From NCBI GenBank assembly GCA_030141605.1, contig JAQGDQ010000218.1, positions 306,706 to 370,705 of the forward strand: a stretch of DNA of 64,000 nt, given 5' to 3'. Positions 1 to 58,775 of the stretch are shown here, in pieces (positions within the stretch are counted from its first letter, which is position 1; each line of letters starts with the position of its first letter). The position numbers and the translations under genes were made by a program. Under the pieces are notes generated by a model. That model did not search any database. It was not told the origin of the DNA and saw nothing but the letters and a program-made list of their open reading frames with translations. The stretch comes from Tubiluchus corallicola (lineage: Eukaryota > Animalia > Priapulida).

Positions 1-2489
1 TGGAGTCACGTTTGCCATTTTACATACCGTTGGAAATTCGCCTCTCATAATTATCTGATTAGCAATGTAAGTCATATGCGGGGCTATTACAGATGCGCTA
101 TCTTTTAGAATTTTGATAGGAATATCTGATGGTCCACTCCCTTTGTTGGAACTTAGGTTATTTAATATGTCGTTAATTTCTCCTACTGTGACGCTTTTGA
201 ATGAGAATACTGTGTTAGACGATTTGTTTTTTAATTTATTAATTATATTATTGTTAATATGAGAAGCCACTCCCTTAAAATTTCCAAGATTCAGGAATAT
301 TGCATTTAGCGCATTGGCAATATCTTTGGGTTTTGTAATAACAGTGTTGTTGATCTTAATTTCGTCAACACGCGTTAGTTTGTTACGGCATTTATTTATT
401 ACATTGTTAATAATTTTCCATTTTTCTTTGGTATTTGTTGCGTTTTTACATTGTTGTTGTATATGTTTATTTTTCAAGCATTTATTAAGATTATTAAATT
501 GATTTCTCTTTTTTTATAATTGTTATGATTGTTTTTAGTTTTGTTCTTTTCCCATATATTATACATTCTGTTTTTCGCTATTCTTAGTTTGTCAAGTTCA
601 GGTGTTGTCCAGGTACTTTCGTTATTGAGTTTGCTTTGTTGTGGGATTTGCTTTACGTTTTTATATGGTGCATGTACATTAAGGCAATATTCGACATTAT
701 ATGTCAGAATATTAACTTGTGTATCTATTTTATCAGTCATATATATGGAGGTCCAGTTCATTTTTGCTAAGTCGATTAAGTATGAATGTTTGTTGTATTG
801 GGCGTAGTCTCTCATTAAATGCCAGACTGAATTTTGGTTATTATTATGCTGTGGGGTCATTTTATCTACTAATATTATGAAATGATGATCTGAATAATCA
901 CACGGGAAAGTATCATATGCTACGAAATTATTGTTACTATTCGAAATGAAATGGTCGATTACTGTGGCTGATGTTTTAGAAATTCGAGTAGGTTTATTGT
1001 TGTTAAGTATGTGGACATTATATTGTTTTAAAAGCTCTGTGTATGTTTTGTATGCCAGTGTGTTTGTAGCTAAAATATCAAGGTTGAAATCGCCCATTAT
1101 AAGTACTTTTTTATTTTCGAAAACACTGCGTTCTAGTTCTTCACTAAAGTATTTGAAAAATGTTTTGTGTTTGAGATTGGGTGGTCTATATATGGTTCCT
1201 ATTACATAGTTCTCAATGCTGCACCAAACAGATTCAATTTTGCCAGTTCTGATGCCTTTCATTTCTTGTGGTCTCAGGTGTGAAGGTATATACATCGCAA
1301 CCCCTCCACCTTTCTTATTTTTACATCTATCTCTTCTTATTAATGTGTGATTAGGTAATTCTATAGTGTTGCTAAGTATTTGTTTATGTAGCCAAGTTTC
1401 TGTTATGCCTACAATCAGATTTTCGGTGGCGTGAATTGTATCTTTCAGCAGCCAGTGTTTTTTGACGAGACTTTGAATATTTATATTTAGAAATTTGATG
1501 TTCTTTTTATAAGTAATCATGAATTTTTTTAGCTTATCACTGGTATTATTATTGTTGGTGTTATTATTATTATTATTTGGCAAAATGGGTCCAGGGTTAG
1601 TTTCGATACCACCAAGTATAAGTAGTAAACGAATTATGGTTAAAATGTAAGCCAGTTCAGAACATGAGTATAGAGTGCTTTCAAATTTAGATGAAATCTG
1701 TAATTTTTCCAATTTTTTTAGAGCTACGTATTTTAGATTGACATGACGCATTTGTCTTATAGCACTGAGGTACACAACTTTTAAGATGGATACAAATCTT
1801 TTTAAAATAAATTGCATAGAGTGTCTTATTCTATCGCTATTTACAGGAAAAGCAATGAAAAAGTTGTTTAAATTACCTTTAGTCATTACATTACAAATTA
1901 CTGTTACGTAGATCATTTTCAGTTTTAGTATGGAGAGTAATGTACGTAGTATAACTAAGACGTAAGCATAGTTACAATAAAAGAACTTAACTGTTTGATA
2001 TTTGGCGTTAAATATACAAAGGCTCCCATGATCACAAATAAATTTGGTAATTTTATGATAAGATACGTTAGAAATATCAACTATGATACAAGAAGTAAAT
2101 TCGTATGGTTTCCAAAATGTACCTATTAACACAAATAAAATAACTTTAACTTGCAGTTTTTTTGCAGTAATACAGCAGCATAGTATCAAGCTTACACAGT
2201 AAAACGTTACACATGCGTGGTAAATTAATTTTAGAACGATCATAAGGATACTAATATCGATTGTGAGTAAAAGGGCTTGTATAGAATACAGTACTATAAG
2301 AAGTAAATATTTCCTATTATGTAATAACGTGGGTGAGATAATTGTTATTATAATACTAGTATACACAATTGTTACGTTATAATCTTTACACGAGTTAGGA
2401 TGGATTGGCCTATTTTGCCATATTATGTAAAAATTCACTAGCAGCAGTGCTAAAAATTTTCTGTTATTCAGTGTCATCATTAAAATCAT
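1..2489 (-). CDS. LINE ORF2 (hydrophobic leader, 2A-like motif, APE endonuclease, start of RT) with one frameshift at T7 run 509-515
   Basis: APE motifs NINIQS, GITETWL, GGGVAMY, IYRPP, MGDFN, PTRI..TVIDHF, SDH. Adding one A at 509-515 continues the frame open to base 1 (YKKKRNQFN...WKIIN...NKGSGPSDIPIKILK...FPTVCKMANVTP). Confidence 0.88.
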
Positions 2490-2585
2490 AATAGAATAGT
2501 AAAAAAAGGAGTTTTATAACAGGTTTACGCAGACTAGCTTTAAAGTTCAGAGTAATGTCTAAAACCAAGCTAAACGATACTAGGC

Positions 2586-4139
2586 CTATATGAACTTGGA
2601 GATAAGCTCTTTAAAGGCTTTGGTTAGTATGTTTTCAATCTCGGATTTTACAACTGGTTCCTGAGTTAACAGCAGCGGTTCATTTTGGCTTGGCAGTGTT
2701 GTAGAACATTTATTAGGATAATGAGCTTTAGCCGATTCTGTGTAGTACAAACTGCTTCGTTCAGATGGCTCTCTCCGGTTCGAAACGGAGTAGGCTCGCT
2801 GTGGGTCGTTAATTACTGGCGTTGGGAGAAGACCAGGTTTCTTAACTGCGTCTGAATAGCTGGTATTGTGAGATGAACCAATACGTAAATTAAACGAGTT
2901 ATTTAGGCGCGAAATTGCAGAATTGTGTTGGTATGGGTTTGTATGGGACATTGGCTTGCGTCTTGTTTTCACGTACCAACGCTTAGGATCATTGTGTAAA
3001 CATAAGTTCAGTCGTTCTGCTAATTTTGATACACCAGCACGACTTAAATGTAAACCGTCTCTTGCCATTAACCCTTCAGCTAAAAAATGACTTTGAATGT
3101 TGCACAATAAATAGCCCTCTTTGTTAGCTAAATAGACTAGATCATCATTGAAAGAGCGTATAAGCTCGTTTGTCAGAAAGATATTACATGGTTTTGCATT
3201 AAAATGCTTACTTTTTGAAGTCAGCGGTATATTACAAATAAAAATGTTTGCAGCTTTAAACTTACTTGCAATGTTTTTTGCACAGTTGTCTGCAATTGTA
3301 ATGATGTCTCTAACTGATGATTCTTTGTCGATTTGCTGTCCAACCTCGTCGCATTTTTGCGCTAGCCGTCTTATGTCATTTACACCACAAGCGATGATCA
3401 CATTTTCAAGCTTCATAGCTGGATAATGGTTTAACACTTTTGTGCTTAACTCTTCTAATGTTAAGCCTCTGTATGAGTGTACCTGGACGTTTTGCCCGAT
3501 GTCCTTTGGATTTAAGTATACGGTCCGTGAGTCTCCCAGGACTAGCGTTTGAGTGGTTGCATGTATGGTCTTATGATTTTTCCTTCTTTGATTCACAGTT
3601 ATTGTGGCATTGCAAGTTTCCTTTTCCTGCAAGGTTTCGCCCTGCGATGGAAGGTCATTATTGCCGTGTTTCGATGAGGAGGTGTCTCCATTCACAAGCA
3701 AAGTTTGACTTGCTTCATCTGTGTGACTGGGATCTTTGGAGGAATTATCACTTGTTTGGTTGCTTACATTTCGTTTTCTTTTTTGTAGTTCAGAGAGTTC
3801 CGTTGATAATTTATGAACCTTTTCGATGAGAGTTGACTGCTCTTTATAGCTGGCAGCTAGTTTTGACTCCAAGCATTGAATTGTCTTTTTACTCTCTTTT
3901 TCCTCATTTTTGGTTTTTATTTGTAAGGCAATTAGCATTTGTTTATATCGTTCGCCCTCTGGATCACCAACAAGTACGAAGTCGGGAAACACAATTTCTG
4001 CCGCCTCGTGTCCATCATTTCCCATATTCGTCGTTTGCCTATGTTTTTTGAAGCACCTTTCGCACGTTGCAAGAAATAGCTGATTTTTATTTATTGGATT
4101 TTTTGCACTTTTGCAAAGCGTGCAACTTTTCCTTGCCAT
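2586..4139 (-). CDS. LINE ORF1: N-terminal CxxC..CxxC finger, coiled coil, SGNH/GDSL esterase domain
   Basis: 517-aa ORF with CTLC...CERC, a heptad-rich segment, and SGNH blocks LVLGDS, YRG, CGVND and DGLHL, as in CR1/L2 ORF1 esterases. Confidence 0.88.
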   Translation of the reverse strand: MARKSCTLCKSAKNPINKNQLFLATCERCFKKHRQTTNMGNDGHEAAEIVFPDFVLVGDPEGERYKQMLIALQIKTKNEEKESKKTIQCLESKLAASYKEQSTLIEKVHKLSTELSELQKRKRNVSNQTSDNSSKDPSHTDEASQTLLVNGDTSSSKHGNNDLPSQGETLQEKETCNATITVNQRRKNHKTIHATTQTLVLGDSRTVYLNPKDIGQNVQVHSYRGLTLEELSTKVLNHYPAMKLENVIIACGVNDIRRLAQKCDEVGQQIDKESSVRDIITIADNCAKNIASKFKAANIFICNIPLTSKSKHFNAKPCNIFLTNELIRSFNDDLVYLANKEGYLLCNIQSHFLAEGLMARDGLHLSRAGVSKLAERLNLCLHNDPKRWYVKTRRKPMSHTNPYQHNSAISRLNNSFNLRIGSSHNTSYSDAVKKPGLLPTPVINDPQRAYSVSNRREPSERSSLYYTESAKAHYPNKCSTTLPSQNEPLLLTQEPVVKSEIENILTKAFKELISKFI

Positions 4140-4680
4140 TCATGTATGTCTTTTAACATATACTTTGTTCGACGTAGTATCTTTTAACTATAAGTAAATT
4201 TGTACAGCCTTGGCCTCACGGCCTAATCACAATCTATTCAACACTAACTGGTATAATTAGCAACCGGAGCACGAGACAAACGATGTGCACCGGACAACTG
4301 ACAACTGACCATCTTGACTCTTAAATCTTGAAAATCGTACATAAGTTTTTTCCCTCTTTAGAATTTTTCAGCAAGCTCACAAAATGTCTTCCAGAAGCTC
4401 CGTTATTGGGGATCAATTTCTCCGGAAGTGTTTAATAGGGTTGATAAAACAATAAACTCCTGACAAAGTTTTTCACCCGGCCAAAACTTGTAGAGTAATC
4501 TGAATATATTAGCTCAAAGTTCATAGTTCTCTAATATCGAATTTGACAATTCATAAATATGATATTATATTGTTTGTATTTTTCCCTGCAAGTTTATGTA
4601 AAAAAAAGCTCCCTTGAAACTCTGTAATCCAGCCGTACTTAGTTTCCAATAATTCAGACCCGCAAATGTGTAGACGTTAC

Positions 4681-5575: not shown

Positions 5576-6556
5576 AAAAAGGCTTAAGGTCCTGAAGGAG
5601 TTAATATTGTGATCTTATATATTACTAGTAATATAAACATATGGGGGGCAGGCCTGCAAGTAGCGGAAGTTGTGAAAGTGCCGGAATTCCGTCTCTTCGA
5701 TCAGCTTGCACAGTCAGTCAGCTATCAATAAGCAGTGTAGCGATGAGGAAATGTGACAGAAATCTATCTCTTCTGTCTGTTCTAGCTGTCAAGCAGCAAA
5801 AGTGAAGAAACTTCAGCTTTTCGTGTGGGGTAGCGCCTGTGGAACAGGCCAGCAAGTAACTGAGAAAGCAGAAACCCCTCAATTCTATCTATTCTATCTG
5901 TATCCTGCTCTTGAGCTAACAGAATTGAATGAAGTTGAGTCCGAGTTGAATGTCTAGCTCCCATGCCCAGTGCTGCCATCTACAGCAGCTTTTTTTCAAC
6001 CACTTGCTGGTGAGCAAATAAACAGTGAACCACCTAAACTGCCAGTGTGCCGATACTTCCAATGACATGACCCTTGTCCTGATATCACTTTACACCACAC
6101 AGCCCTGTCACCCGTAATCGCCCATGTCTCTGTATTTTTGATATTTAATGGTGTATTGATAAGATCTTTTTGGATGAAATTGATGTAAGTCAGCAGCTGT
6201 CTTCTTAGCGGTTTCTTTTCTTTCTGCAGTGCTTCTCTGAAAGCTAATTTTAGAGCCATCATCTGGTAGTTTTATAACATGTTGTAACCATCTTAATCTT
6301 CTCCTTTTGATTTTAACTATCCATTCCTCTGCCTTGACTTTATTATACCCGATCCTGCTTTAATATTTTCCTGAGATTTTATTCCTAGGCTAGAGTTTCT
6401 TCTGTGGAATGCATCAATTTCAGATTTGTGTTGTGCTTTGAATATCCATAATTCTGAGTTGTGGAGAAACTAAATTCCCACAATTGCAGCAAAGATTCTT
6501 AATTTGTTTCTACACTGACCCTTTTACTTTCAAAAATTTTGGAATATGCAGCTAAT

Positions 6557-8398
6557 TTGATTTCAAGCCTGTTTCACAGGATCAGGTAAATAAGTACCTC
6601 AGTGCCATTGGTAACAAAAAGGCGACTGGCCTTGACAATATTCCTGTAAAAATTCTGAAACTAGTCAAAGAGGCCTTTCTGCCTCAATTAACTGGTCTCA
6701 TAAATCAGATGTTTGACTGTTCAGTTTTTCCAGATGAATTTAAGCATGCTCGCGTCACCCCAGTGTTCAAAAAAGATGATGCGCTGAACAAGAAAAACTA
6801 CCGTCCAGTCAGTGTTCTTCCTATAGCTTCAAAGGTGTTTGAGAGAGCCATGGTGGACCAGCTTGGCGACCATATGTCCCGACACTTTCACCCACTCTTG
6901 TCAGCCTACCGTAGTGGATACAGCTGCCAGTCAGCACTGTTAGGGTTAACCGAAGAGTGGAGGAAGGGACTGGAGGCCGGTAACTATGTTGGTGCCATCC
7001 TGATGGATCTTTCAAAGGCGTTTGACAGCCTTCCACACAATTTATTGTTGGAAAAGTTAAGGTGCTATAATTTATCAGAAAATGCTGTAAATTTGATCAA
7101 AAGCTACCTTACTGACAGAAAACAACTTGTTCAGATCGGGAACGTCAAGAGCTCACCCCTTCCTATGGATAAAGGCGTTCCTCAGGGATCCTTAACTGGA
7201 CCTGTACTTTTTAATTGTTTTATTAATGATATCTTCCATTTTGTCAGTAAATCCACCTTGTACAACTATGCTGATGATAATACTGTTTCCTACTCCAGTA
7301 AATCATTTAATGATATGAAACAAACCTTAGAAGTTGAAAGTAACGCACTGGTCGACTGGTTTGCTTCCAACCAGTTTCAGGGGATTGCTGTGGGCAAAAT
7401 TACACACGACCTGAAACCTACTTTCAACATCAAAGGAGCGGATATTGAATGTACAGATGAGGTGAAACTTCTTGGTGTAAATATAGACTATCGCCTGAAT
7501 TTTGACTCGCACATTTCAGCCCTGTGCAAAAAAGCAGCTAAACAGATTAATGTTCTACGCCGTATTGGGCGAAACCTGTCGGTAAAATGTCGAAAACTCA
7601 TCTACCTTTCGTTTGTCAAGTCGAATTTTAATTTCTGCCCCGTAATCTGGCATTTCTGTAGTACATCAAATAGCCAGAAGTTAGAGCGTTTGAATTTCAG
7701 AGCGCTCCGTCTAGATTATAATTATTTCGAAAGTACCTACGAAAATCTATTGTTTAAAGACAATTTTGTGTCTCTTCAACTTCAGAGACAACGTCTCATT
7801 GCTATCGAAGTATTCAAGATTTTGTCCAAAAACTGCCCGTCCTATCTCTATGGACTGATAGAGGAACGAAAGCAAAACCGCTACTTCCTCAGAAAAATGA
7901 ACACTGCAGAACACCCTACATATGATGGTGTTACATACGGAAAGAAAAGTTTCTCTTATTATGGAGCCACATTGTGGAATGAATTACCAAACTGTCTCCG
8001 AATGGCCGAAAATCTTGGGGAATTTAAACGTCTAATTAACTCATGGACTGGTGCATCATGTAAATGTGCCATTTGTAAATTCAGCGAACTTCCCAATTTT
8101 ATTAAGTCTTAATTAAATGCTGAATGTGTTGGCAGGAAAATTTTTTATTGACCATAGCTTTTTGTGTAAATTTTAGAAAATGTCACTGCCTAAATTTTTA
8201 CTGTCTCAAATTTTTACTGTCTTTCATGTAGGTGGCATCTAAAAGTTTTTAAGAAGTACATATTATTACCATGTTATCGCTCATATACATTATGTTTGAT
8301 ATCGGTTTACGAGCTTTAAGCTCATGTTTTACAAATATGTACTGTTTTATATCATACCGATGAAAATAAATATTATCTTATCTAATAATAAATATTAT
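6557..8398 (+). mobile_element. 5'-truncated CR1/L2-group (Crack-like) LINE: RT domain and 3'UTR
   Basis: RT ORF to 8112, AATAAA/TTATC tail near 8365-8400, ctaat repeated at both junctions (6552-6556 and 8399-8403). Confidence 0.9.
6709..8112 (+). CDS. Reverse transcriptase (LINE ORF2 C-terminal half), probably inactive
   Basis: NYRPVS, DLSKAFD, GVPQGS, YADD, LLGV, C-terminal W.G..CKC..C. 5'-truncated and apparently lacking about 7 aa at WFASN-QFQ, where MxANPxK is usual. Confidence 0.9.
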   Translation: MFDCSVFPDEFKHARVTPVFKKDDALNKKNYRPVSVLPIASKVFERAMVDQLGDHMSRHFHPLLSAYRSGYSCQSALLGLTEEWRKGLEAGNYVGAILMDLSKAFDSLPHNLLLEKLRCYNLSENAVNLIKSYLTDRKQLVQIGNVKSSPLPMDKGVPQGSLTGPVLFNCFINDIFHFVSKSTLYNYADDNTVSYSSKSFNDMKQTLEVESNALVDWFASNQFQGIAVGKITHDLKPTFNIKGADIECTDEVKLLGVNIDYRLNFDSHISALCKKAAKQINVLRRIGRNLSVKCRKLIYLSFVKSNFNFCPVIWHFCSTSNSQKLERLNFRALRLDYNYFESTYENLLFKDNFVSLQLQRQRLIAIEVFKILSKNCPSYLYGLIEERKQNRYFLRKMNTAEHPTYDGVTYGKKSFSYYGATLWNELPNCLRMAENLGEFKRLINSWTGASCKCAICKFSELPNFIKS

Positions 8399-12856: not shown

Positions 12857-15800
12857 GTGAAATGATTTTGTGACTTAAACTTTATTTATTTCATGTTTTG
12901 GTGGTTATACTTTTTGAATAGTTCTTTACTTTAGTTGTTTTTGATTTGACTTTATTTAAGCTGGAACAATGTTAAAATGCATGAAAGTCCCACATAGAAT
13001 CGGGCCCCACTGGGACGAACGGGGGGTGAAAAACTTCCAAAAATTGCCATTTTTCAGCCGTTTTTGCAAAACGTTACCTCTTATTTCTGAAGAACGGGGG
13101 TGGTGCTGGGTATGGATAGATAGCCCGTTCAGCGGTGGGTGTAGTATGCATATTTAGAATATGCGAGAGGACCACGGCGTCCCGCAACGGGCATTTTCCC
13201 CGGACCCAACTCGCGATTTTTTCGAAATTTTGACCAAACAGCCTGCAGAAAAAACGTTCTAACGGCGCCTGGTGGGACTTTCGTAAGGAGATATATAGGT
13301 CTTTAGAAAGAGCAAGAACAGGGCTACACGATGGTGTGGGCTGCATTTTAGGACACGTCCACCAAAAGGAGTACCGACGAGTTAATTAGATGTTCTATTT
13401 TTGGCAATTTTCGCTTAGAAAACTGCTGATGCAATGCCATTGTTCTGACGTCATCCATTGTACTCTGTCTATAACCTTATCACTTTAATTCAGTAAAAGC
13501 TGCTGCTGCTGGCTTTGCATTAGATAAACAAACGGACACTAGGTAGAATGTTTGCGCAATTTTGATTATAAGTGTATTTATACGCAATTTTTTTGCAGGG
13601 CCTTTGCTATCAATTAATTAATTTATAATACGTTTACATATATCACTTGCTGACAGTAAACTTGATACCTGCGCCTGAAATCAAATAGGCCTCTCATTTT
13701 TGGGCTTTATGTAGAGTTACGCCTGTATAATTTATAACGTTGTAACATGTTATTTCTCTTTCTCTCATTCACTAACTCTTTCAATCAGCAAGCTATTGAT
13801 AGACATTTTTCCAAATTTATATAACAGTCGTTAGAATAATGTAGATATCTGTTTTCAGAAAAAAAGGCCAAAGACGTAATGACAAGTGAATCTCCAAAAT
13901 ATATGCAGAGCATTTCTTACAGTGGCCACTAATTCATTTACAGATCAGACTCATTGACACTTATTTACCTATAGACAAGCGCATACAGTGACCACTGAGC
14001 TATTCGTCTTCTCTAACGTGTTACAAATCTGTTTCTTATCTTACTAACTTTCCATAGTGCTAAATGTAGCAAAAAGTGCTATTCAGGCTATGTTTATATA
14101 TGATCAATTGCAATGCTTTGACCCTATAATAAACTACTGTACAGTGCCGTAAGACTTACCTGTCTTTGTCATAAAATAAATGTTCATTTCTCATTCTGGC
14201 TAACTCTTATCTTTGATAAACATTACGATGAAAAACATGCCATAAACACATTGACCCTTGCACCTTGCTATGGTATAGAATAGTTATTTCGTCAACATGT
14301 TATCACAGATAGCTTAGGGTGAATACACGTCTTCAAGAATTTGATCTGTTACCAAGCAGAACACATTTTCTAACATATAGTTGAATAAGCAAATAATATT
14401 ACTCTTAGCAAAACAGTGTCATCATGTATAATCGTGACCAAAGACTACAAGACAGAACTCGCGGTGAAACAGAGCTTACAAAAGCCATTGCAGCTGGTGA
14501 TTATAATAAAGCAATGAAGGAAATTAGCGCTCACAGAAATGAGGAATACTTGAACGAAGGACCAGACCACTACTCCCCACTTTACATGATTCTTGGAAGT
14601 GGTCGTGAAAAGATAATTCATCTTCCTTTGGCAAAGAGTTTAGTTGAACATGGAGCAAACTTAAACCTGCAACTTGACATGATATCTGGTGATACTCCAT
14701 TCAACGCGCTGCTTTTCTTATATCTAAGATGGGAATTGTACCATGTTCGTTATTCAGTTCCCATTATTGGATTAGACTGGCAACAAATTCATCAAGAAGA
14801 AATATATAAAGAACAAATAGAAACGCTCATTCGGCTCTTCATCAGCTATGGGGCCGATGTTAATGCAACTTATAGAGGTGCCCCTATTATTCACGCTCTT
14901 GTATATGAAATTCCATGTGAGACAAAGCTGTTGCGGTTACTATGTGAAGCGGGTGCAGACGTCAATGTAAAAGGCCATGTTTATTTACTTTTACCGTGTT
15001 TACCTCTTGTTGTAAGCTATTGTGTTCCTCTGCATTTAAGCATGTGTCACGCAGATTTTACAACAGCAAGAGAATTGATCCACTATGGTGCAAAGACAGG
15101 AATTAGAGCAACTTTAGAATTATCAATTTAGCGGGAGAAGGATGGAATTTTCTCCTCTCATGTTCTTCCTCATCAGGCAAGGACTTCTCTCATATTATGA
15201 TCAAAATCAGAAATACAAAGAGAAATATAATCACTTATCTTCACTAGTAGACAATGGTTTCTTTGACGATTCAAGCATTGAAAATGAACTTAAGGAACAA
15301 TTAAAGTACTTTCCAGAGTTTAGAATCTGTGCGGATATCCAAAATCTAGTTGGAAAACTGTATGGTTGTGCTACTAGTGACTTGAAGCAACTGTGTGTTA
15401 GAGAACTGGCAAAGAAAATTAGCTTTGATGATACATCTGCCTCTAAACTACAGCAACTAGTTGTAGACTTACATTTGCCTACTATTCTTTTAGATAGGCT
15501 TTATTTGGAAGCTTTCAAGTATCAAATGCCCTCTAATCTTGTTAAAAAGTTGTAAAAATGTTTGATATAGCAATTTCAAAAAAAGACGTTCATAAACGAA
15601 TTTGTCTCGACAATGAGTAAAATTCTCAAAACTCATGAACCATGTATAGTAATTTCTGTAGGATTCGTGAATGATTTAATTTGCCGCAGGTAGAATTTTG
15701 CGTAGATTGTAAGTTGTGGAGAGTGTGAATTTAAAAAATAAAATGGGTTGTGTATCCATTGCGTAGTACATAATTATGACAACAAATATTATTTAATTTT

Positions 15801-18800
15801 ATATAATTATATAGCACAACTCTTGCGTAATATTAGAATGGCGAGCATAACCATTAGCCTGTGTTTATTCCAGAATACCATTTTCTAGTATGTCAGTTAA
15901 CACATTGTTACCAGATATAACATATATCTTCACTATACCAGACGATTTTGTAGAATAATATATACACTGTACCTGGATTTTTATAATAAGTTGCATGGAT
16001 GCTGAAATAAAAAATTATTTTATGCACTACTACATGGATTCAGATTATAAACTACTTATTTGGTAATTTATGCTTTAATTGTACAGTAAAATAATAATGA
16101 AAAAACTCTGCTGATAATGTTCGTGTGGAGACATAAATTACATACTTTTACTTTGTTACAATAACTGTAGTCATGGTATGGCCTGCATGTTGAGTCAAAT
16201 ATATCTGAATAAGCACTGATTTTATTTTTTTTTGTGATAATAAATCTTTATTCATAAAATAAATAACATATGTACAAAAGAGTGCTTCTTTTCGTTTACC
16301 ATTGCATCATAAACTATATCGTCAAACAAGGAAAGTTGTTTTACCTAACCATGCAATAACACCATACAGTGTAATCGGCAAAATGGCAGTTTTATAAAAA
16401 AAAATTTGCAGTCGCAGTAATCATCATATCTCTGCATTTACTAAAGAAATTTTATTTTAATTTCAGCCATCTGCTCAAACTTTTTATGTACATTAACAAG
16501 AACTGAAAACAAAAAATAATAAAGTTGGATACCAAAATCTAAACAAAACAATACAATTATTCAGTAATTAGGATTATTATATGTAGTAGTTTCGAATGGG
16601 GTCTTATTAACAGGGAATTTGACCAAGGTTAGTGAGTAAAGTTAAAAACTGAGAGTATGGAAAGAAAAAAATAAGCATCAAAAAAGTGTAATATAGAAAA
16701 ATTTATGAGAAAAAGTAAGTATGAGAAAGAGCAACAGTTACTTAAGAGATGAGGAGAAAAAAGAAAAGAAAGAAAAACTTGCTAGCTTGTTTAATAGTCT
16801 TACAAATTATGTTCTACAGGTATGTTCATTTAGTAAGATTTTTGTGTATTTTTTGTAAGCATTTTTGAATCTGAATTCAAATTCAGTTTTAAGGCTTTTT
16901 TGGTGACTTTTGAATCATGAACAAAAGGCATTCACGATATGATGGTGCACATACTTTCACTTTGTTCCATAGTAAAACACTAACAATTTGTTTAAAAATT
17001 GTGCACAGACAGAAATGGCAGGTAAATTGTGCTAATTGCATGCTGATTCTAACATTTTAATGATAAAAAATGCATGTAGTTGAAGTACTGAATTACTAAA
17101 ATCCATAATTCTAGGTTCTTCGAACTAAAAAAACTCATTCGAACAGTTGACACTAATTTGAATGGTGCTCACCCTTGATAGTGGCCATTGGTGTGTCACT
17201 ATTATTGATCGTTCTTTTAATACACTGAATTCAGCGTCCATTACTACCGCTGGCATCCTTCTGTCTCGGAAGACAAATGGAATGTGCGCCAAGAGAGTCC
17301 GATCCTTGAACGTCTCCAGGGCGCATGCCTGGGCAAGGTGTATGGAGATTCTGAGTTGCCCAGACAACATGAACCCCCTCTCTTCCTCCCTGGTGTAGTC
17401 CAAAGGAACATGGAGCGATACGTTTGGCACCAGGTTGGCTGCAGGAGCTGCCGGAGTCAGTGAGCATGCTGCGCTGGTCCACCTTCGGGGCTCCACTCCT
17501 GATTTGGAAGGTTTACTCCTCTACACATGGCCATTGGGTCACTTGACCTCTTCCACCCTCTAGCCGTTGACTGTTTGTACAGCTCCTCCGCCTAGTGTCG
17601 AGATACAGTGTAGGCATCCCGCATGCCTACAGCACCTGGTATTCCTAGGCGGTCCCCCATCCAAGCAGTAACCAGGCTCTACGTTGCTTAACTTCGGTGA
17701 TCAGACGACAACCGGTGTTTTCAACGTGATTTGGCCGTAGTTATATAATACATACTAGTCTTTTATAGTCATTAATGTTTTAAATAATATGAATGCCCTT
17801 AAAAATGCTTCAGAATTTGTTAAGTCTATTTGATGCCGACAGGTGTCAGTATGAGTCGAGGGCGTTTGCCATGATTTTGTGAATCAATAAAGTGTCATTG
17901 TCTGTTCAATAAGCTTTTTCTATGCTGTGTCCTTAGCAGTTTCCATGGTAACAGAGAGTAGTTTCCCGCGATCTTAAAAATTTACCAGTTATCAATTATT
18001 TCAGGCGGCACTTATGTTGTCGGCCAAACTACTCTCTGTTACCATGGAAACTGCTAAGAACACAAAGCTTATTGAGGAGACAATGATAACACTTTGATAC
18101 ATAAACTCATAAAATCATGAGTTTTCATTATAATGTTAGATTGACTTGTTGTTGTGCTGCGGTGACTTCCAAGCTGTGAGAAATCGTTCAGATTTGACAA
18201 GTTTAGCTGCTCCTGCAAAGTACCAACTATTAAACACGTTTTACAAGTAAGTAGTATTCTGTTTAATATTTCACTATGTACAGTATGTGAACGGCAGCCG
18301 TGATTTGAAAATTCATCTTATAAGTACACTTTATTTTTTCAAAAGTTTTAAGCAGGGGTGTGCAAATTATCTGACTAGCCGGGCCACATTAAACTCTTCC
18401 GCAATTCCTGTGGGCCAGAGGCAGTTTGGTCAAGGAGCCAAGTACAGAACGGCCTAATAACGATTTTTTTGCATCCAACCTGCGTACATCATTACTACTA
18501 CACTCAAGAAACTATTTTAGAAGTTATTAAAATTTATATTACAAACCATATATTTCTACTTTCAGGACAGATAGTGGTAATTTCATTACAATGCATATTA
18601 GTAATGTGTATCACACAGTCTGTGTAGCTGTGACATTAAGCTACAACCGTCTTGTAAGTGTTAATGGCATCCGATCTAGTAGAAAAAACTACCCGCTCTA
18701 TCTTTGGGATCGTGGCACGGACTTCACCTGGATACACTCAATTAATCGCCCGGGCCGCACTTTCATTAGGTTGACAAATCTCTTCGCGGGCCGCACAAAT

Positions 18801-21800: not shown

Positions 21801-24800
21801 TTGTCAAGTGTACGCAAATGCGTTGTCTGGCACACTTAATCTTTGACCTTTTCACGATCATCATCAATCGCTGGAACTGCGAAAAGGCTTATTTAGTAAG
21901 TGTTAATTGTTTTGTTTAGGATATGCGGGAGTAATTAACTATGGTGGACTTCGCATAGCCGGCTTGTCGGGTATTTATAAAGGTCCAGATTACTTGAAAG
22001 GTCATTTTGAGAAACCTCCATATTCGGAAGACACAAAAAGAAGTGTGTATCATATCCGTAACCTTGAAGTGTTTCGACTCAAACAGGTAAAACTCAAACA
22101 GTATAACATAAAAGCCACTTCTCTACAAAGTGACTTAAAATAAAAGCCTTAAAGGAAGGAACAAGTTATTCAGTATGTTGGGTTTATTTTACTGTTATCA
22201 CTTAAACTGTTTGTGGTGTGCTAAAGGAAAGAACAAGTCATTCAGTATGTTGGGTTTATTTTACTGTTATCACTTAAACTGTTTGTGGTGTGCTAAAGGA
22301 AAGGACAAGTCACTCAGTATGTTGGGTTTATTTTACTGTTATCACTTAAACTGTTTGTGGTGTGCTAAAGGAAAGAACAAGTCATTCAGTATGTTGGGTT
22401 AGTCTACTGTTATCACTTAAACTGTTTGTGGTGTGCTAAAGGAAAGAACAAGTCACTCAGTATGTTGGGTTTATTTTACTGTTATCACTTAAACTGTTTG
22501 TGGTGTGCTAAAGGAAAGAACAAGTCACTCAGCATGTTGGGTTTATTTTACTGTTATCACTTAAACTGTTTCTGGTGTGCTAAAGGAAGGAACAAGTCAT
22601 TCTGTATGGTGGGTTTATTTTACTGTTATCACTTAAACTGTTTATGGTGTGCTAAAGGAAAGAACAAGTCACTCAGCATGTTGGGTTTATTTTACTGTTA
22701 TCACTTAAACTGTTTCTGGTGTGCTAAAGGAAGGAACAAGTCATTCTGTATGGTGGGTTTATTTTACTGTTATCACTTAAACTGTTTGTGGTGTGCTAAA
22801 GGAAAGGACAAGTCACTCAGCATGTTGGGTTTATTTTACTGTTATCACTTAAACTGTTTGTGGTGTGCTAAAGGAAAGGACAAGTCATTCAGTATGTTGG
22901 GTTTATTTTACTGTTTTCACTTAAACTGTTTGTGGTGTGCTAAAGGAAAGGACAAGTCATTCAGTATGTTGGGTTTATTTTGCTGTTATCACTCAAACTT
23001 AGAAAAATAGAACGAAGAAATTTGTAAAAAACCATGTATAGAACCATGTATATTCTACCTCTGAATAGAAATTTTTAAGCCTCGTGGTTGCCGCCATTCA
23101 CTTGAAAATCATGACATAACTGGGAGACTTCGTGAGTTTTCCCGAGCGCATCCTGGCTTTCCGTAAATGCGCCCTGCTTAAACTAATTCAAACTTCTACA
23201 GCCTACCTAATGTTCATGCAAAAATATTACAAAATTATCTATCTATTTTTAGTAAAAACTTATTATACTTTTGACAAAGATTGACAGTGCACTACTTTTC
23301 TTCAAGACGAATGACGTCACTGGAAGAAGAATGGGTATTGAAAATGGGAGCGTCCAAGCATGAAATGATCGAGACTTTAAAGTGATTTTACTAATTACAC
23401 GAGACGCTTATTGCAGTTTTATTACTAAATCCTTCTAAAATTTTTTGTGAACATTGAAATAAGCCTTACCTCCTAGAATGCTTGACTTCTCCTTTAAAAG
23501 TTTCCAAGTTGCGAAGTATAATATTAGTTTTTGGCATTCTTTGCATTTTGCTCACTGCTTATGGATATTTTCTCGCTTTAGTTAAAAAAATAAAACGTCT
23601 TTAAATCTTCATATTTTTGATGAAAATTGTGCAATTAGTAAGTTAATGATATCCAGAATTAAGATCTCTGTTGGCTTGTTGTATCGTATATAATTAGTGC
23701 CACCTGCTGGAAAATAGTTATAAGTTTATTTATTTCCACTCTGCATCTAACAGTTATAATAAAAATACAGATAATTTCACTGAAGTAAATATAAATATAA
23801 ATGCAATATAATCCAGAAATTACAAAAGAATTACAGAATAATTTTGATGCATACAGTTTGAGCCTAAAAGCATAGCTTGACAGGCCAAACTGTACGTGGA
23901 AATCTTAAATAAGTGATTAATAATTGAAATAATGATAATATATACATAAAAAGTTGGGGGGGGGAGTAGTGAATGAAAAATGAAATGGAGCGAGAACTAA
24001 GAAAAACTGTGTCTCCTCTATTCCTCTCACAATAAGCGGCTCTTGGCATTTTATACTGTGTAGATATTTTCAAGGTCGCCAGCAGGCGGAAGCACTGAAG
24101 CACGTACAGCCAGAGAATTTCTTAAATTATAAATTTTTTTTGTAGGTAAATAAAAAATTTTTAGCAATAAACCAAGAAACGCATCAATCCTTGTTTCTCT
24201 GGGCAATGATGAGTTTTAAACTAGTGAACTTGCCTTAAGAAACAGCTTCTAGCAACCGCATAATGGTCTAAAATGCAGTAAAATACACGTGTGGCCGAGA
24301 CGTTCTGTCGTTTAGCTGTGTCTGGTGGGAAAAATTAGCACGCATGCAACTTTTGTATGGACAGTGGTCAGTGGGTGGACTGTAAACTGAACAGTCTCAA
24401 ATCAGTTTTACGTTTGACTGTCCACATTTTGCTGGATAGATAATCTTGACACTAAATAAATTAAGCTTAACTAATGGGTCATCCGCATTGCAGTATATTA
24501 CGAACTTGCTTTTAACATATATGAATACTACAATAGAATACAATGAATATTACCTGGGTAAATGTAGGTAAAATGTATTTATTAAAGCAGAATTTTTCAT
24601 GTTTAAGGAAGTCTGTGTACCAGAATTTAGATCTCATTTGAGGCCTCCAAATTGTGCTTAAATACAGGAAAATTCCTTGTTGGCCGGGGTTCCTCCCTGG
24701 TGCCCGCTGGGGGAGTTTACAGACCCCCCAGACCTCCTAGCTGCTTGTGTGTCAGGTTTTTTAAACTCTGCCGGCGCCCTTGGATATTTTATTTTGTATG

Positions 24801-27800: not shown

Positions 27801-30800
27801 AATATTTGAATGTCGTATGTTTTTAAGAGCATATAATTCTTATATTTCATATTTTTTCTATACCAACAAAGTCATATTTTTATATACAAACAAATTGTAT
27901 ACATAAAATTGTTTTATTTGTATGTATAATAACTCTTTCACTTTTATCATCATCAAACAGAATGAGGGTGAAGAGAGAGAAAGAAAAAAGACGCATTTTC
28001 TCGCGCTGGACAAATGTTTACCTAAACGAAAGTTTTTGCAGGTACGCATTCCATGTTTCATACCAAAACAGACCAGTTTTGAAAAAAAGTTTATTTAAAA
28101 TGAGTTTGATTTCAGTTATTAATGGTTGAAGATACTTTTTATTTAATCTTGATTTTATGGTGCAGAAAACCTTGACGAAGTCGATTTTCGTAGTTAATGA
28201 GCCTTTTTCCAGTTTCGTTGAGAGCACGCGCAATTGGTGTAGGTCAAAGGTCAAGTGTACCACAGCAACGCGTCTTAACTACAACCCTTACATGACATGT
28301 GGGTAAAGCAAAACCGTCTGCTGCATCAGTTTAGTAACTTCAATTCTTTTACGTGGACTTTGCTTAATTATGCATTAGTCTGTGCATAGAGTGATTTACT
28401 AGCAGGATCTTGCTTGGCAACAAGAAAAAATGAACTAGGTAAGATTCTAGCTAGCAGTTAAAACTGTTAGTATTACAAAAGCATGGGCTGCAAAGCATCG
28501 TCAAATGTACACAAATGCGATGTCTGTTACACTTAACCTTTGACCTTTCCACGATCATCATCAATCACTGAAACTGTGAAAAGGCTTGTTTATTGTTAAT
28601 CTGATACGCACAGTTCTCCATTTTTTTGGTGTTAAAGCGTGTTTTTAGTAAAAATGAATGAATTGCCATTAAATTTTAGTTTACTGGTTGGTGCTGCACA
28701 AAACTTGCTTTCTCACAAGAAGCAACTCAAACCTCATTCAATTTAAATAAAAAAAACTTAATTGGTTATAAAATTACTTATCGATTAAAGTTGATCACAC
28801 TGAAGTTTCTGAATAAATGCAGTATTAATAGTTGTAATATATGTTTAAAGGCGTGTTCACACTATTGCATGTTCACATGATTATGTGTGTAGGTTGTAGA
28901 CATCCCGTATGAAGACACGAGTCCTTTTAGTTTAAAGTATGATGTTGAATGGTTGTCAATTTTACGAAACACGAATCACTTGTTGAGCTTGAAGAAGAGT
29001 ACCGTTTACATGCCCGGGCCGGGCTGTGCGGAGAGGTGAGTGGATAGATTACAGTAATTCCTCGTTTAACGACGCTAATACGTTCCGGCAAAATGTGACG
29101 TTAAGCGAAACGTCGTTAAACGAAGTCGAGACTTCCATAGAAAATAACGTGAAATAATTAAAATATGTTTCCGAGTCAAAATCAGTGCTGCTTAAATCAC
29201 ATAAATAAAACACTTTATGAATTTTATTCGTATTTTTGCTGATTAATTTCTTTCTGTTTGCTTGAACCACCTGTCTTTATTACTAATATCTAGTTAGACC
29301 TGGGGGTTAAAAGGGGGATCGTTAAAAGGAGGGTTAAAAGGGGGATCGTTAACCACCGTGGCTATTTGTAGTTTTGAGGTCGAAAGCTGACATTCGTATG
29401 TGAAATAAAAACACGTGTAATATAACTTGCTATTAGATGTTCCTAATTTATATATAATTAGTTTTTATTTCCTGTTATTTTCTTTTGTATTCAAAGGGGA
29501 GGGTGTTATGACGCTAAAGTTGTCGCTGGGGTGTTTTGGGGAGAGCCAACAACCGACATTGGCAGGTTTATCAGACTGTTTTTGTGGTTGCGATGTTTGT
29601 GTTAAACAGATGAAATCATTGGATGAAAACATGGTTTAACTTTGCAATCCGTATTTTACTCAAAATCATAGTCTCATAGTCAATCCACATTGGTTTAACT
29701 TTGCAATCCGTATTTTACTCAAAATCATAGTCTCATAGTCAATCCACATTGGTTTAACTTTGCAATCCGTATTTTACTCAAAATCATAGTCTCATAGTCA
29801 ATCCACATTGGTTTAACTTTGCAATCTGTATTTTACTCAAAATCATAGTCTCATAGTCAATCCACATTGGTTTAACTTTGCAATCTGTATTTTACTCAAA
29901 ATCATAGTCTCATAGTCAATCCACATTGGTTTAACTTTGCAATCTGTATTTTACTCAAAATCATAGTCTCATAGTCAATCCACATTGGTTTAACTGTGCA
30001 ATCCGTATTTTACTCAAAATCATAGTCTCATAGTCAATCCACATTGGTTTAACTTTGCAATCTGTATTTTACTCAAAATCATAGTCTCATAGTCAATCCA
30101 CATTGGTTTAACTTTGCAATCTGTATTTTACTCAAAATCATAGTCTCATAGTCAATCTACATATACAGGAAAATGGTAAACATAATCAACAGTAGTAAAC
30201 AAAAGTTAAAGTAAATCCATCAGCCAATATATCATGGCACCTGAGTGAAAACGTTATTATAACCACACAACTGTTTAAGCCTATTGCTTGTCCTCTCATC
30301 TTGCTACCAAGTCAAGAGTAGTAGTTATTCACAGAGAAGCCCAGTAACTCAGTTCTATACAAACATATAGCAGTAGCAAGCACATACATATATTGGAAAC
30401 TTCAAAGTGTACAGACAGATGTCAGCACTGACTTAGTGGTAGTGAAAAACAAAAATTTAAAACTACAAATCAAAATTATTAATAAACTGTAAATTAAATG
30501 CTCGCATCTGCGACAGAGGGGGTACAGAATAACAGTTTCTCGGGGTTTAATGTGCAACTTCCCTTACTAATTATATGTATCTAGTTTATTATTAATGTTG
30601 ATTTTTTTGTGCATTTACGCAGGGGCGGTGAGAAATCAAGGATTCCATGAGGGGGTCAATGATGTAAAACGTTTGGGGAACCCCTGATCTCAGATTGGGG
30701 AGCCCCTGATCTCAGATTGGGGAACCCCTGATCTCAGATTGGGGAGCCCCTGATCTCAGATTGGGGAACCCCTGATCTCAGATTGGGGAACTCAGATTGG

Positions 30801-31439
30801 GAGCCCCTGCCTCAGATGATTAAATTTGTTTCAAATTTTTGCAGGTGGAATTTCACACCAACCGAAGAGGAGTTGAAAGTGGTAATTAGATTATTTTCCA
30901 GTGGACTGGAAATTCCCAGTAACTTTCAACAGACTGTCCCCCCGTTTTCTAACTACGATCCGAAAAAAGCGCCCCCTGCCGCGTGTTTGGTGAATCCGCA
31001 GACTACGGCATTGTGTGTAAGACTTGGTTTGACTGATCCTCATAGTGTTTTTACTGGCGTTCAGACTGAAGGTAGTGTGAACAGAGCCGCAAACGAGCCG
31101 AGAAATCCTGACGAAATCGATGTGACCCTGGTCAGTGCGACGGACGATACGTTCGCTTCGACCAGTCAAGATGAGAGCTTTGTCGATTTCTCTCATGCGA
31201 CCTCGGACAGTTCCGTATTCGAACCGCTCAACAGCTCTAGTGATTTTGTACCGCCGCAGTTCTTGCCGCGCGAACACGGAAGCTCGCTGGAGTCGAGCTA
31301 CGAACAGGAATCGAAGGGCGGCGACTGCACGTCGGAATCCGAGAAACGGTTGAGCGGAGACGCGGAATACGTGGAATCTCCGGCGAGGAAATTTAAGAGA
31401 AGGAATGCTGCTGTTTATCAAAACGAGGACAGTTCTTAG
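12767..31439 (+). CDS. DBR1: Lariat debranching enzyme, 8 coding exons, about 510 aa
   Basis: Exons 12767-12856, 18140-18246, 19429-19553, 21920-22086, 25330-25554, 27961-28041, 28893-29035, 30845-31439 (1533 nt, phases consistent). Motifs [61 protein letters not shown]. Confidence 0.97.
12981..13450. mobile_element. CpG-rich segment resembling a DNA transposon subterminal region (unclassified)
   Basis: Abrupt GC/CpG rise; inverted pair atgaaagtcccac (12981) / gtgggactttcgt (13272). No partner terminus found. Confidence 0.4.
14424..15555 (+). pseudogene. Intronless ankyrin-repeat + SOCS-box (ASB-like) gene, split by a frameshift at 15118-15131, nested in DBR1 intron 1
   Basis: Ankyrin motifs [48 protein letters not shown]. 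The second ORF ends in a BC-box/cullin-box pattern [15 protein letters not shown]...[11 protein letters not shown]. Confidence 0.8.
16865..17177 (-). mobile_element. Older, diverged copy of the hAT-like MITE at 20725-21116
   Basis: Reverse complement aligns with 20725-21060 (ttttatcattaaaatgtt, tgcaattagc.ca, tcaccc end). Confidence 0.6.
17252..17741 (-). mobile_element. 5S-rRNA-headed SINE (SINE3) with RTE-related tail, copy 1
   Basis: About 117-nt 5S-like head at 17625-17741 with no oligo-T terminator, then a body shared with the copies at 48429 and 53004; internal deletion relative to them. Confidence 0.88.
17870..18119. repeat. Foldback element with about 90-bp inverted arms
   Basis: catgatttt...cttagcagtttccatggtaacagagagtagttt versus aaactactctctgttaccatggaaactgctaag...aaaatcatg. 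Confidence 0.85.
18140..18246 (+). CDS. DBR1: DBR1 exon 2
   Basis: ttag|[15 protein letters not shown]...TFY|gtaagt. Confidence 0.95.
18353..18834. mobile_element. hAT-like MITE, right end interrupted
   Basis: CAGGGGTGTGCAAA start with repeated GCGGGCCGCA/GGCCCG subterminal motifs. Confidence 0.6.
18835..19220 (+). repeat. Dispersed unclassified repeat (second copy 51960-52345)
   Basis: tgttaaactttcaaa..gaatcca..aagactgg...taccgtgataagcat... shared over about 380 bp. Confidence 0.75.
19429..19553 (+). CDS. DBR1: DBR1 exon 3
   Basis: cag|[41 protein letters not shown]|gt. Confidence 0.95.
19925..20042. repeat. 19-bp minisatellite
   Basis: (ttacttaatagtactatta)n, about 5-6 copies. Confidence 0.85.
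20097..20432. repeat. About 173-bp direct tandem duplication
   Basis: ttgtacattgtagttaggtgctgcc... starts at 20097 and 20270. Confidence 0.85.
20691..21278 (-). mobile_element. tRNA-headed SINE interrupted by a hAT-like MITE
   Basis: Reverse complement of the family at 57682-57873, with its tail split at 20724/21117. Confidence 0.75.
20725..21116. mobile_element. hAT-like MITE with 8-bp TSD
   Basis: TAGGGGTGA...TCACCCCTA termini, cataacag on both sides, many TTCGAA subterminal motifs. Confidence 0.9.
21509..21893 (+). mobile_element. About 385-bp MITE family with AATAAGCCTTTTCACAGTT-type TIRs, copy A
   Basis: Other copies at 24939-25300, 28195-28590, 33968-34354, 47557-48101 and 55005-55705. 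Confidence 0.85.
21920..22086 (+). CDS. DBR1: DBR1 exon 4
   Basis: ttag|[20 protein letters not shown]...[15 protein letters not shown]|gtaa. Confidence 0.95.
22153..22998. repeat. 72-bp tandem array, about 11.7 copies
   Basis: Unit aaggaaagaacaagtcattcagtatgttgggtttattttactgttatcacttaaactgtttgtggtgtgcta. Confidence 0.95.
22153..23493. mobile_element. Kolobok-like non-autonomous element, TTAA-flanked, with its left end tandemly amplified
   Basis: TTAA|AGGAAGGAACAAG...CTTGACTTCTCCT|TTAA; imperfect inverted similarity over about 60 bp between the ends. Confidence 0.6.
24939..25300 (-). mobile_element. 385-bp MITE family, copy B (one end truncated)
   Basis: Reverse complement of 21509-21893. 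Confidence 0.85.
25330..25554 (+). CDS. DBR1: DBR1 exon 5
   Basis: ctag|[16 protein letters not shown]...[18 protein letters not shown]|gtaa. Confidence 0.95.
26170..26640. repeat. About 19-21-bp minisatellite
   Basis: (tgtgtcatgctgtcttatg[t/ct])n. Confidence 0.95.
26694..27798 (+). mobile_element. Element carrying a 1-kb degenerate TTAGGG array between perfect 20-bp inverted repeats
   Basis: agtttacaattccccacaca (26694-26713) and tgtgtggggaattgtaaact (27779-27798). A related shorter copy is at 46640-46770 (-). Confidence 0.75.
27961..28041 (+). CDS. DBR1: DBR1 exon 6
   Basis: cag|[27 protein letters not shown]|gtac. Confidence 0.95.
28195..28590 (+). mobile_element. 385-bp MITE family, copy C
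   Basis: Aligns to 21509-21893. Confidence 0.85.
28893..29035 (+). CDS. DBR1: DBR1 exon 7
   Basis: tag|[31 protein letters not shown]...MPGPGCAE|gtgag. Confidence 0.95.
29632..30160. repeat. 59-bp tandem array, about 9 copies
   Basis: Unit tggtttaactttgcaatc(c/t)gtattttactcaaaatcatagtctcatagtcaatccacat. Confidence 0.95.
30674..30815. repeat. 22-bp tandem array built on a hAT-like right end
   Basis: (ttggggaacccctgatctcaga)n, about 6 copies. Confidence 0.85.
30845..31439 (+). CDS. DBR1: DBR1 exon 8 (last coding exon)
   Basis: cag|[10 protein letters not shown]...NPQT..LC..LGLTDP...NPDEI...[16 protein letters not shown]. Confidence 0.95.

Positions 31440-36451: not shown

Positions 36452-58775
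<22,324 letters not shown>

What the first reader, a model, noticed from the sequence alone, without database searches (positions are those of the whole stretch)
1587..2489. LINE ORF2 begins with a 293-codon membrane-like leader followed by a 2A-like StopGo motif
Seen: ORF2 has about 880 bp of stop-free, very AT-rich sequence ahead of the endonuclease. It encodes five or more long hydrophobic stretches (e.g. YLLLIVLYSIQALLLTIDISILMIVL, VILFVLIGTFW, YAYVLVILRTLLSIL) and ends in LTIIRLLLILGGIETNPGP (GIETNPGP at 1610-1587). Known: 2A-like (D/G)xExNPGP motifs occur just upstream of the APE domain in L2/CR1/Crack LINEs, and LINE ORF1 SGNH esterases can bind membranes. Inference: ribosomal skipping would release a separate multipass-membrane polypeptide from the EN-RT, effectively a third LINE product. 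Together with the esterase ORF1 it could target the RNP to membranes or vesicles. G in place of the canonical D may lower skipping efficiency.
Basis: partly seen in the sequence, partly recalled or inferred. Interest (0 to 1): 0.75.

Follow-up and report, generated by a model that had tools for sequence, protein, structure and literature searches.

The report
Extra-long greasy leader before LINE 2A
A young, multi-copy jumping gene (LINE) keeps an unusually long, greasy stretch of 293 codons open ahead of a known ribosome-skipping motif; this likely docks the translating ribosome on internal membranes and rations the copying enzyme, but skipping and membrane insertion are untested.

Summary
On the minus strand, ORF2 runs stop-free from ATG 2489 through 293 codons to GIETNPGP (1610-1587), then the endonuclease; chance is about 3e-11. 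That ATG is the first after an SGNH-esterase-type ORF1. The family is young and multi-copy. Its main contigs keep the leader intact, and 35 listed variants give 15 synonymous, 20 missense and 0 stops (dN/dS about 0.5, weak). The leader has no detectable homologue or fold. Its five hydrophobic segments only marginally exceed what its own T-rich composition gives (P 0.04-0.10). G for D is a published functional variant: 9 of 15 tested GGIE peptides skip, but the two closest fall off or do not skip. 2A motifs before LINE endonucleases are known, and this scan found hydrophobic leader plus 2A on other DNA before (7 notes). Related elements carry conserved leaders of about 110 aa, at most 227. This one is longer, richer in hydrophobic segments, and sits behind an esterase ORF1. 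It is most likely an ER-docking and throttling leader; a stable third protein is not shown. Verdict: new variant of a known kind.

The parts
4140..4310 (-). 5' untranslated region; the element's 5' end is near 4280-4310 (approximate)
   Evidence: Contig depth drops to flank level beyond about 4300, and a contig has a loose end at 4309
2586..4139 (-). ORF1, 517 aa: N-terminal CxxC...CxxC, a likely coiled coil, SGNH/GDSL esterase-like domain (GDS at 202, GxNDI at 252, DGLH at 361), low-complexity tail
   Evidence: Pfam Lipase_GDSL_2 E 5e-4, below the curated cut-off. No PDB sequence match
2490..2585 (-). 96-nt inter-ORF spacer with no ATG; tolerates 1-2 nt indels among copies near 2507-2511
   Evidence: 0 ATG; table 4
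1611..2489 (-). 293-codon open hydrophobic leader of ORF2, starting at the first ATG after the ORF1 stop (A at -3)
2166..2378 (-). Cluster of three predicted hydrophobic segments (aa 38-58, 62-82, 88-108)
   Evidence: simple scales only
1920..1982 (-). Fourth predicted hydrophobic segment (aa 170-190); resembles the 2A helix 105 residues downstream
   Evidence: mixed significance
1587..1646 (-). 2A-like peptide: L-rich helix (4 Leu at positions -19 to -10), then G-GIETNPG|P; core octapeptide 1610-1587; predicted skip between the Gly (1592) and Pro (1589) codons
   Evidence: compared with published motifs
1541..1581 (-). Asn-rich repeat linker between the 2A motif and the endonuclease; next Met at 1520
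885..1481 (-). APE endonuclease domain of ORF2
   Evidence: Pfam PF03372 and PF14529 above cut-off
1..513 (-). Continuation of ORF2 (linker up to the start of RT) after a 1-nt frameshift near 508 that the main Illumina-type contigs lack; RT lies off-window

Best explanation
The 293-codon leader is the open, in-frame start of this LINE's ORF2 and likely acts as a membrane anchor and throttle: its greasy segments would dock the ribosome and the element's own RNA on the endoplasmic reticulum, and the 2A-like motif would then stall the ribosome so that only part of the time a free endonuclease-reverse transcriptase is released. Shown: the frame, its position as first AUG after ORF1, its persistence among young copies, a weak synonymous excess, and the fit to the StopGo motif. 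Inferred: re-initiation at AUG 2489 after ORF1, capture by the signal recognition particle, and a mix of skipping, fall-off and read-through. Also inferred: the released enzyme (starting Pro-Ile-Leu-Pro-Asn) binds its own RNA at the ER surface, where the esterase ORF1p could assemble the particle. The leader itself needs to be open and hydrophobic rather than to have a precise sequence, and is probably short-lived.
For: Stop-free P about 3e-11. No ATG in the 96-nt spacer. Indels are common among copies just upstream of the ATG but absent from the high-depth Illumina-type leader contigs. Listed variants: 15 synonymous, 20 missense, 0 stops, against a neutral synonymous share of 0.22-0.30 (P 0.004-0.07, dN/dS about 0.5). 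ORF1 is similar (7 synonymous, 13 missense) and the endonuclease region is far more constrained (8 and 2). Second codon positions are 45% T against 26% expected from the rest of the element. Of 231 related proteins, 122 have a 2A-like motif before APE; leaders have median 108 aa, and 34 of 98 leaders of 60 aa or more have a hydrophobic segment besides the 2A helix. These leaders are a conserved family (38 of 39 held-out leaders beat all shuffled and reversed controls) under purifying selection (pN 0.18-0.40 against pS 0.52-0.84 in 10 pairs). Published passages: 2A-like peptides that double as ER signal sequences (PMC4981915); reduced protein output for 59% of tested ORF2p 2A-like peptides and with 3 or more Leu; SRP-dependent ER translation of Ty1 RNA (abstract of PMC3945221); membrane binding by the ZfL2-1 esterase (PMC3905857).
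Against: No skipping, localisation or expression data exist for this element. Hydropathy (P 0.036), T at position 2 (P 0.026) and segment count (P 0.10) only marginally exceed a frame-blind null built from the leader's own bases. The variant list is the tool's best-supported subset (35 in the leader; 32 further rows not shown), and 0 stops among 35 is not significant on its own (about 1-2 expected). The conserved leaders of relatives are not detectably homologous to this one (-4 bits), so their conservation is analogy. One of the two closest tested peptides did not skip. Broken leaders exist in low-depth copies: a 4-nt deletion at 1725 and a 404-nt skip.
Confidence: 0.45

Rival explanations
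1. The leader is only a passage that the ribosome must cross from the first AUG to the endonuclease. It stays open because any stop would kill ORF2, its hydrophobicity is a by-product of a U-rich RNA or DNA element, and the 2A motif discards it.
For: Hydrophobicity barely exceeds the frame-blind composition null. Third positions are also T-rich (0.37 against 0.33 in APE and 0.27 in ORF1). No homologue among 1.84 billion representatives except one repetitive low-complexity hit at E 9.5e-4. Constraint is weak.
Against: There is a synonymous excess (P 0.004-0.07). T enrichment is strongest at codon position 2. Leaders of related 2A-LINEs are conserved proteins with a hydrophobic segment. Keeping 879 nt of 70% AT sequence open is costly if it is useless.
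Confidence: 0.25
2. One reading: skipping releases a stable multipass membrane protein, a third LINE product, that works with the esterase ORF1p to load the particle on membranes or into vesicles.
For: Five predicted segments, three closely spaced with short basic loops; the longest and most hydrophobic leader of 123 compared; found together with an esterase ORF1; 9 of 15 tested GGIE peptides skip.
Against: No family, homologue or confident fold (pLDDT 43.8). dN/dS is about 0.5. Relatives manage with leaders of 50-120 aa. The closest tested peptides fall off or do not skip.
Confidence: 0.2
3. The motif is an inactive relic, as many LINE 2A-like sequences are. ORF2p is made either as a membrane-tethered fusion or by internal initiation at Met 1520.
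For: Odon et al. found several CR1 2A-like sequences inactive despite a largely conserved motif. A tested peptide ending in the same nine residues was scored non-skipping. An in-frame Met sits just before the endonuclease.
Against: All key residues (E, N, PGP, L-rich helix) are intact and no variant among those listed falls in the motif. Twelve of 15 GGIE peptides had some effect. Starting at 1520 means bypassing 16 upstream AUGs in the leader and would not explain its open frame.
Confidence: 0.1

Closest known systems
[quoted passage not shown] 2013, PMC3708506; Luke et al. 2013, PMC3894237), especially the few that keep ORF1 (CR1-26_BF, CR1-53_BF, CR1-1_LG)
   Same: L-rich 2A-like motif in frame just upstream of the APE domain; ORF1 kept in a minority; throttling of ORF2p already proposed.
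   Different: The published motifs lie about 40-80 aa from the ORF2 start; here the leader is 293 aa with several hydrophobic segments. The parts read describe no hydrophobic or membrane leader. The core is G(I)ExNPGP, and ORF1 is esterase-type.
2A-bearing LINE ORF2p set of Snell and Matreyek 2026 (bioRxiv 10.64898/2026.06.17.732966 = PMC13405545)
   Same: 2A-like peptide before the endonuclease with variable N-terminal sequence; GGIExNPGP peptides tested; reduction of output proposed as the main role.
   Different: The long N-terminal extensions they name are folded soluble domains (Josephin or OTU deubiquitinases, repeats, ORF1p); 2A start positions reach 589 and 673 in the rows seen. 'Transmembrane' occurs only in a reference title.
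Sea-urchin NLR 2A-like signal sequences (Roulston et al. 2016, PMC4981915)
   Same: Hydrophobic N-terminal stretch plus 2A splits the product between the ER route and the cytosol.
   Different: About 26 aa, in host immune genes; here 301 aa in a retrotransposon, and untested.
ZfL2-1-type esterase ORF1p (Schneider et al. 2013, PMC3905857)
   Same: SGNH esterase-like ORF1 preceded by a likely coiled coil; membrane binding shown for the zebrafish protein.
   Different: No sequence match to that structure was found. It concerns ORF1 only, with no ORF2 leader in the passages read.

Membership tests
APE-type non-LTR retrotransposon | ORF2 with an APE endonuclease | tested here: met
   Pfam PF03372 and PF14529 above cut-off
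APE-type non-LTR retrotransposon | RT domain downstream in the same ORF, and a 3' tail | not testable with these tools
   RT lies beyond window position 1 and no genome is held. The closest APE homologues mostly carry PF00078
APE-type non-LTR retrotransposon | Dispersed multi-copy family with 5' truncation | tested here: met
   Main leader contigs at 12-21 times the flank depth in run X1, with depth rising toward the 3' part. Depth is only a rough guide to copy number
CR1 group (CR1, L2, Crack, Daphne, Rex1, Kiri) | Placement by RT phylogeny | tested here: inconclusive
   No RT in the window. An APE tree of 81 unlabelled rows puts the element on a long branch (2.24) in no starred set
StopGo/2A class A | Core (D/G/C/N)(V/I)ExNPGP | tested here: met
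   GIETNPGP; definition from PMC12846837
StopGo/2A class A | Strict older core GD(V/I)ExNPGP | tested here: not met
   G in place of D; this is the 'non-canonical' GxExNPGP core
StopGo/2A class A | L-rich helix upstream of the core | tested here: met
   4 Leu at -19 to -10, Leu at -13 to -11
StopGo/2A class A | Measured peptide-bond skipping | not testable with these tools
   Proxy only: 9 of 15 GGIE peptides skip; the two closest (13 of 20 identical, counted by hand) were scored fall-off and non-skipping
Polytopic membrane protein | Several membrane-spanning helices beyond what composition gives | tested here: inconclusive
   4 segments outside the 2A region; P 0.10 against the leader's own composition, 0 of 3000 against the rest of the element. 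The AlphaFold model is unusable
SGNH esterase ORF1 (type IV) | SGNH blocks GDS, GxND and DxxH | tested here: met
   Pfam Lipase_GDSL_2 E 5e-4, below cut-off. Block names are recalled
Conserved 110-aa leader family of related 2A-LINEs | Sequence homology of the leader | tested here: not met
   -4.2 bits against a family profile that recovers 38 of 39 held-out members

The most novel reading that the evidence does not exclude
This LINE makes a third, virus-like product. StopGo releases a 300-residue multipass membrane protein, built by triplication of a ~104-residue leader unit of which only the last kept its skip site. With the lipid-binding esterase ORF1p it builds an ER-anchored or vesicular compartment for retrotransposon particle assembly, like the membrane replication factories of RNA viruses.
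Probability: 0.15. Interest if true: 0.8.

Novelty: new variant of a known kind. Interest (0 to 1): 0.42.

Why it matters
How LINE ORF2 is translated and rationed, and whether membranes take part in non-LTR retrotransposition, are open questions (PMC3894237, PMC3905857). Hydrophobic leaders before LINE 2A motifs turn out to be common and conserved in related elements, and the papers searched do not describe them. This element is an extreme case that joins a long hydrophobic leader, a 2A-like motif and an esterase ORF1 in a young family, so it is a good test object. If the leader is only a throttle, the finding extends a known theme.

Tried and rejected
No whole genome is held, so full-length copies could not be aligned; variants come from short contigs of four runs from at most two samples, one possibly the source. 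No RNA holder was listed. Leader homologue searches were blank: word-index search of residues 1-340 (0 of 6682 candidates, lengths 369-1175 only); HMMER over 1.84 billion representatives (one repetitive hit, rejected); ESM Atlas; Pfam, NCBIfam and PDB sequences. The single-sequence AlphaFold model (pLDDT 43.8) and its Foldseek search (no E at or below 0.001) are uninformative. Close relatives at DNA level were not found: the viral scan gave 0 and the metagenome scan 1 unrelated-layout locus from 2 of 64 parts scanned. One-to-two-base deletions in the leader at 1708, 1713, 1979, 2157 and 2398 were set aside as likely homopolymer errors. They occur only in runs X2 and X4, the same kind of deletion appears in ORF2, and run X1 shows none; that these two are long-read runs is my recall from an adapter-like loose end. 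A ~104-residue triplication of the leader gave mixed tests: the three-way ungapped score 89 beat all 150 shuffles in each of three nulls (test designed after seeing the match), but pairwise tests gave P 0.08-0.16 and P 0.22. It is kept as a lead only. The APE tree did not place the element. The Atlas gave no named cluster for a relative's leader. Rao et al. supplements held no matching peptide. Three supplementary files of PMC13405545 were too large to read and may list closer peptides or longer leaders.

Full report
Observation. The minus strand of window 1-4300 holds the 5' half of a LINE. ORF1 is 4139-2586. After a 96-nt spacer, ORF2 starts at ATG 2489 and runs 293 codons to GIETNPGP (1610-1587), an Asn-rich linker and an APE endonuclease. 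The 301 codons carry no stop at 29.6% GC, where 23 are expected (P about 3e-11); the other frames have 14-41. The motif is the only ExNPG in the window. This copy has a 1-nt frameshift near 508, and RT lies off-window. No genome is held.

Is the leader kept by selection? Four runs from at most two samples hold the element; one may be the window's source. In run X1 the flank contigs have depth about 166 and the main leader contigs 2050-3500 with 0-1 differences from the window, so the family is young and multi-copy. Depth is only a rough guide. Those contigs show no indel in the leader, while 1-2 nt indels are common at 2507-2511, just upstream of the ATG. A copy about 8% diverged aligns without gaps over 335 nt (record 25). 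Of the 40 variant rows shown (32 more were not shown), 35 lie in the leader: 15 synonymous, 20 missense, 0 stops. The neutral synonymous share is 0.22-0.30, giving P 0.004-0.07 and dN/dS about 0.5. Listed ORF1 variants are 7 synonymous and 13 missense; endonuclease and linker variants are 8 and 2. So constraint is real but weak, like ORF1. Against this, low-depth copies carry a 4-nt deletion at 1725 and a 404-nt skip, as dead copies would, and zero stops among 35 is not significant alone.

Is it a membrane protein? GRAVY is 0.76. Five segments pass Kyte-Doolittle 1.6, one of them the 2A helix. An approximate insertion scale with recalled values gives 5 favourable and 2 marginal segments. Against the composition of the rest of the element this is extreme (0 of 3000 simulations). 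Against a frame-blind null built from the leader's own bases it is marginal: P 0.036 for GRAVY, 0.026 for T at codon position 2, and 0.10 for four segments. No homologue, family or fold was found. A ~104-residue periodicity links residues 58-84, 161-187 and 266-292. It beat all 150 shuffles in each of three nulls in a three-way test designed after I saw it, but pairwise tests gave P 0.08-0.22. It is a lead for how the leader grew, not a result.

Relatives. Two searches with the 2A-plus-APE region returned 231 distinct listed proteins (the best 120 of 390 and of 971). Of these, 122 have an NPGP-like motif before the endonuclease. Their leaders have median 108 and maximum 227 residues; of 98 leaders of 60 aa or more, 34 have a further hydrophobic segment and 2 have two. 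The sample is dominated by one family and depends on gene-caller starts. With the 2A region removed, a profile from half of the 79 leaders of 95 aa or more recovers 38 of 39 held-out ones above all controls, but not the window's leader. DNA from 38 loci (mostly animal LINEs inside symbiont genome bins, my inference from their content) gave 23 with 2A plus APE, with leaders of 50-212 aa where complete. Five have exactly 112 aa, with pN 0.18-0.40 against pS 0.52-0.84 over 10 pairs. Hydrophobic pre-2A leaders are therefore real, conserved coding sequence in relatives; this one is a separate and much longer case. An APE tree did not place the element.

The 2A motif. Li et al. 2026 (PMC12846837; passages and one section) expand the core to (D/G/C/N)(V/I)ExNPGP, with G in 1,096 and D in 688 of 1,900 representatives; their G-ending L-type motif 5 was not among those assayed. 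In the reporter table of Snell and Matreyek (PMC13405545 supplement file 3), 15 peptides contain GGIE: 9 skipping, 2 fall-off with reduced protein, 1 non-skipping with reduced protein, and 3 non-skipping. The two closest to this one (13 of 20 identical, counted by hand) were scored fall-off with reduced protein, and non-skipping. The window's peptide has 4 Leu at -19 to -10, the range linked to reduced output (section read). Some stalling effect is likely; clean two-product skipping is uncertain.

Mechanism. The spacer has no ATG, so 2489 is the first start after ORF1. Re-initiation across a short spacer is proposed for mammalian LINE-1 (PMC5972666, passage). I infer that ribosomes start at 2489, are taken to the ER by the hydrophobic segments, and stall at the motif. 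Part release a free endonuclease-RT beside its own RNA; the rest fall off or make a tethered fusion. Precedents are 2A-like signal sequences in sea-urchin NLRs (PMC4981915, passages), ER-localised translation of Ty1 (PMC3945221, abstract) and lipid binding by the ZfL2-1 esterase (PMC3905857, passages). The ER-docking and rationing reading also appears in earlier scan notes, which I read before settling on it. Confidence is 0.45. Rivals: passive open passage 0.25, stable third protein 0.2, inactive motif 0.1.

Known and new. Odon et al. 2013 (PMC3708506; parts 1-4 of 6 read) and Luke et al. 2013 (PMC3894237; parts 1-2 of 3) describe 2A-like motifs about 40-80 aa from the ORF2 start, mostly in elements without ORF1, and propose throttling. 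Snell and Matreyek list longer N-terminal extensions made of soluble domains. Searches listed no paper on multi-segment hydrophobic leaders of LINE ORF2; the library lacks most subscription papers and Repbase reports. Other papers were seen as passages only: PMC12338488, bioRxiv 2026.09.24.754024, PMC13343379 and PMC4120745. This scan has noted the same layout in other genomes seven times, with leaders of 112-151 aa where stated; none matched this sequence.

Verdict. A real feature and a new variant of a known kind. It is the longest and most hydrophobic leader among those compared here, paired with an esterase ORF1 in a young family. A separate functional membrane protein is possible but not shown. 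Interest 0.42.

Noticed in passing
window 4281-4594: Contigs covering the flank next to the element's 5' end have half the depth of the flank further out (83.5 against 166 in X1; 5.0 against 10.4 in X2). This fits a heterozygous insertion or a heterozygous flank.
   Followed up: no
L006:1481-1753: A related LINE has two tandem 2A-like motifs 38 residues apart, the first with a D core and the second with a G core. This shows that leader units can duplicate.
   Followed up: no
L012, L015, L016, L019, L022 leaders: A conserved 112-aa pre-2A leader family under purifying selection, with no named Atlas cluster.
   Followed up: partly
L002-L035: Several bacterial symbiont genome bins (labelled Thiodiazotropha, Sedimenticola) contain many contigs of animal-type LINEs, likely host contamination, and NCBI names such proteins as bacterial.
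   Followed up: no
window 6556-8112 (+): A second LINE fragment with an open RT domain (Pfam RVT_1 E 3e-30) and no 5' part; RT-like remnants also lie near 5996-6359 (-).
   Followed up: no
window 14409-15555 (+): Two overlapping frames that look like an intronless ankyrin-repeat protein with a SOCS-box-like end, split by a frameshift (by eye).
   Followed up: no
window 30732-31439 (+): Frame that resembles the C-terminal exon of a lariat debranching enzyme (recalled resemblance).
   Followed up: no
window 59284-61809 (-) and 22369-23010 (+): Long minisatellite arrays with open frames.
   Followed up: no
window 17125-17520 and 52939-53436 (-): Two similar frames, probably copies of one interspersed repeat.
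   Followed up: no
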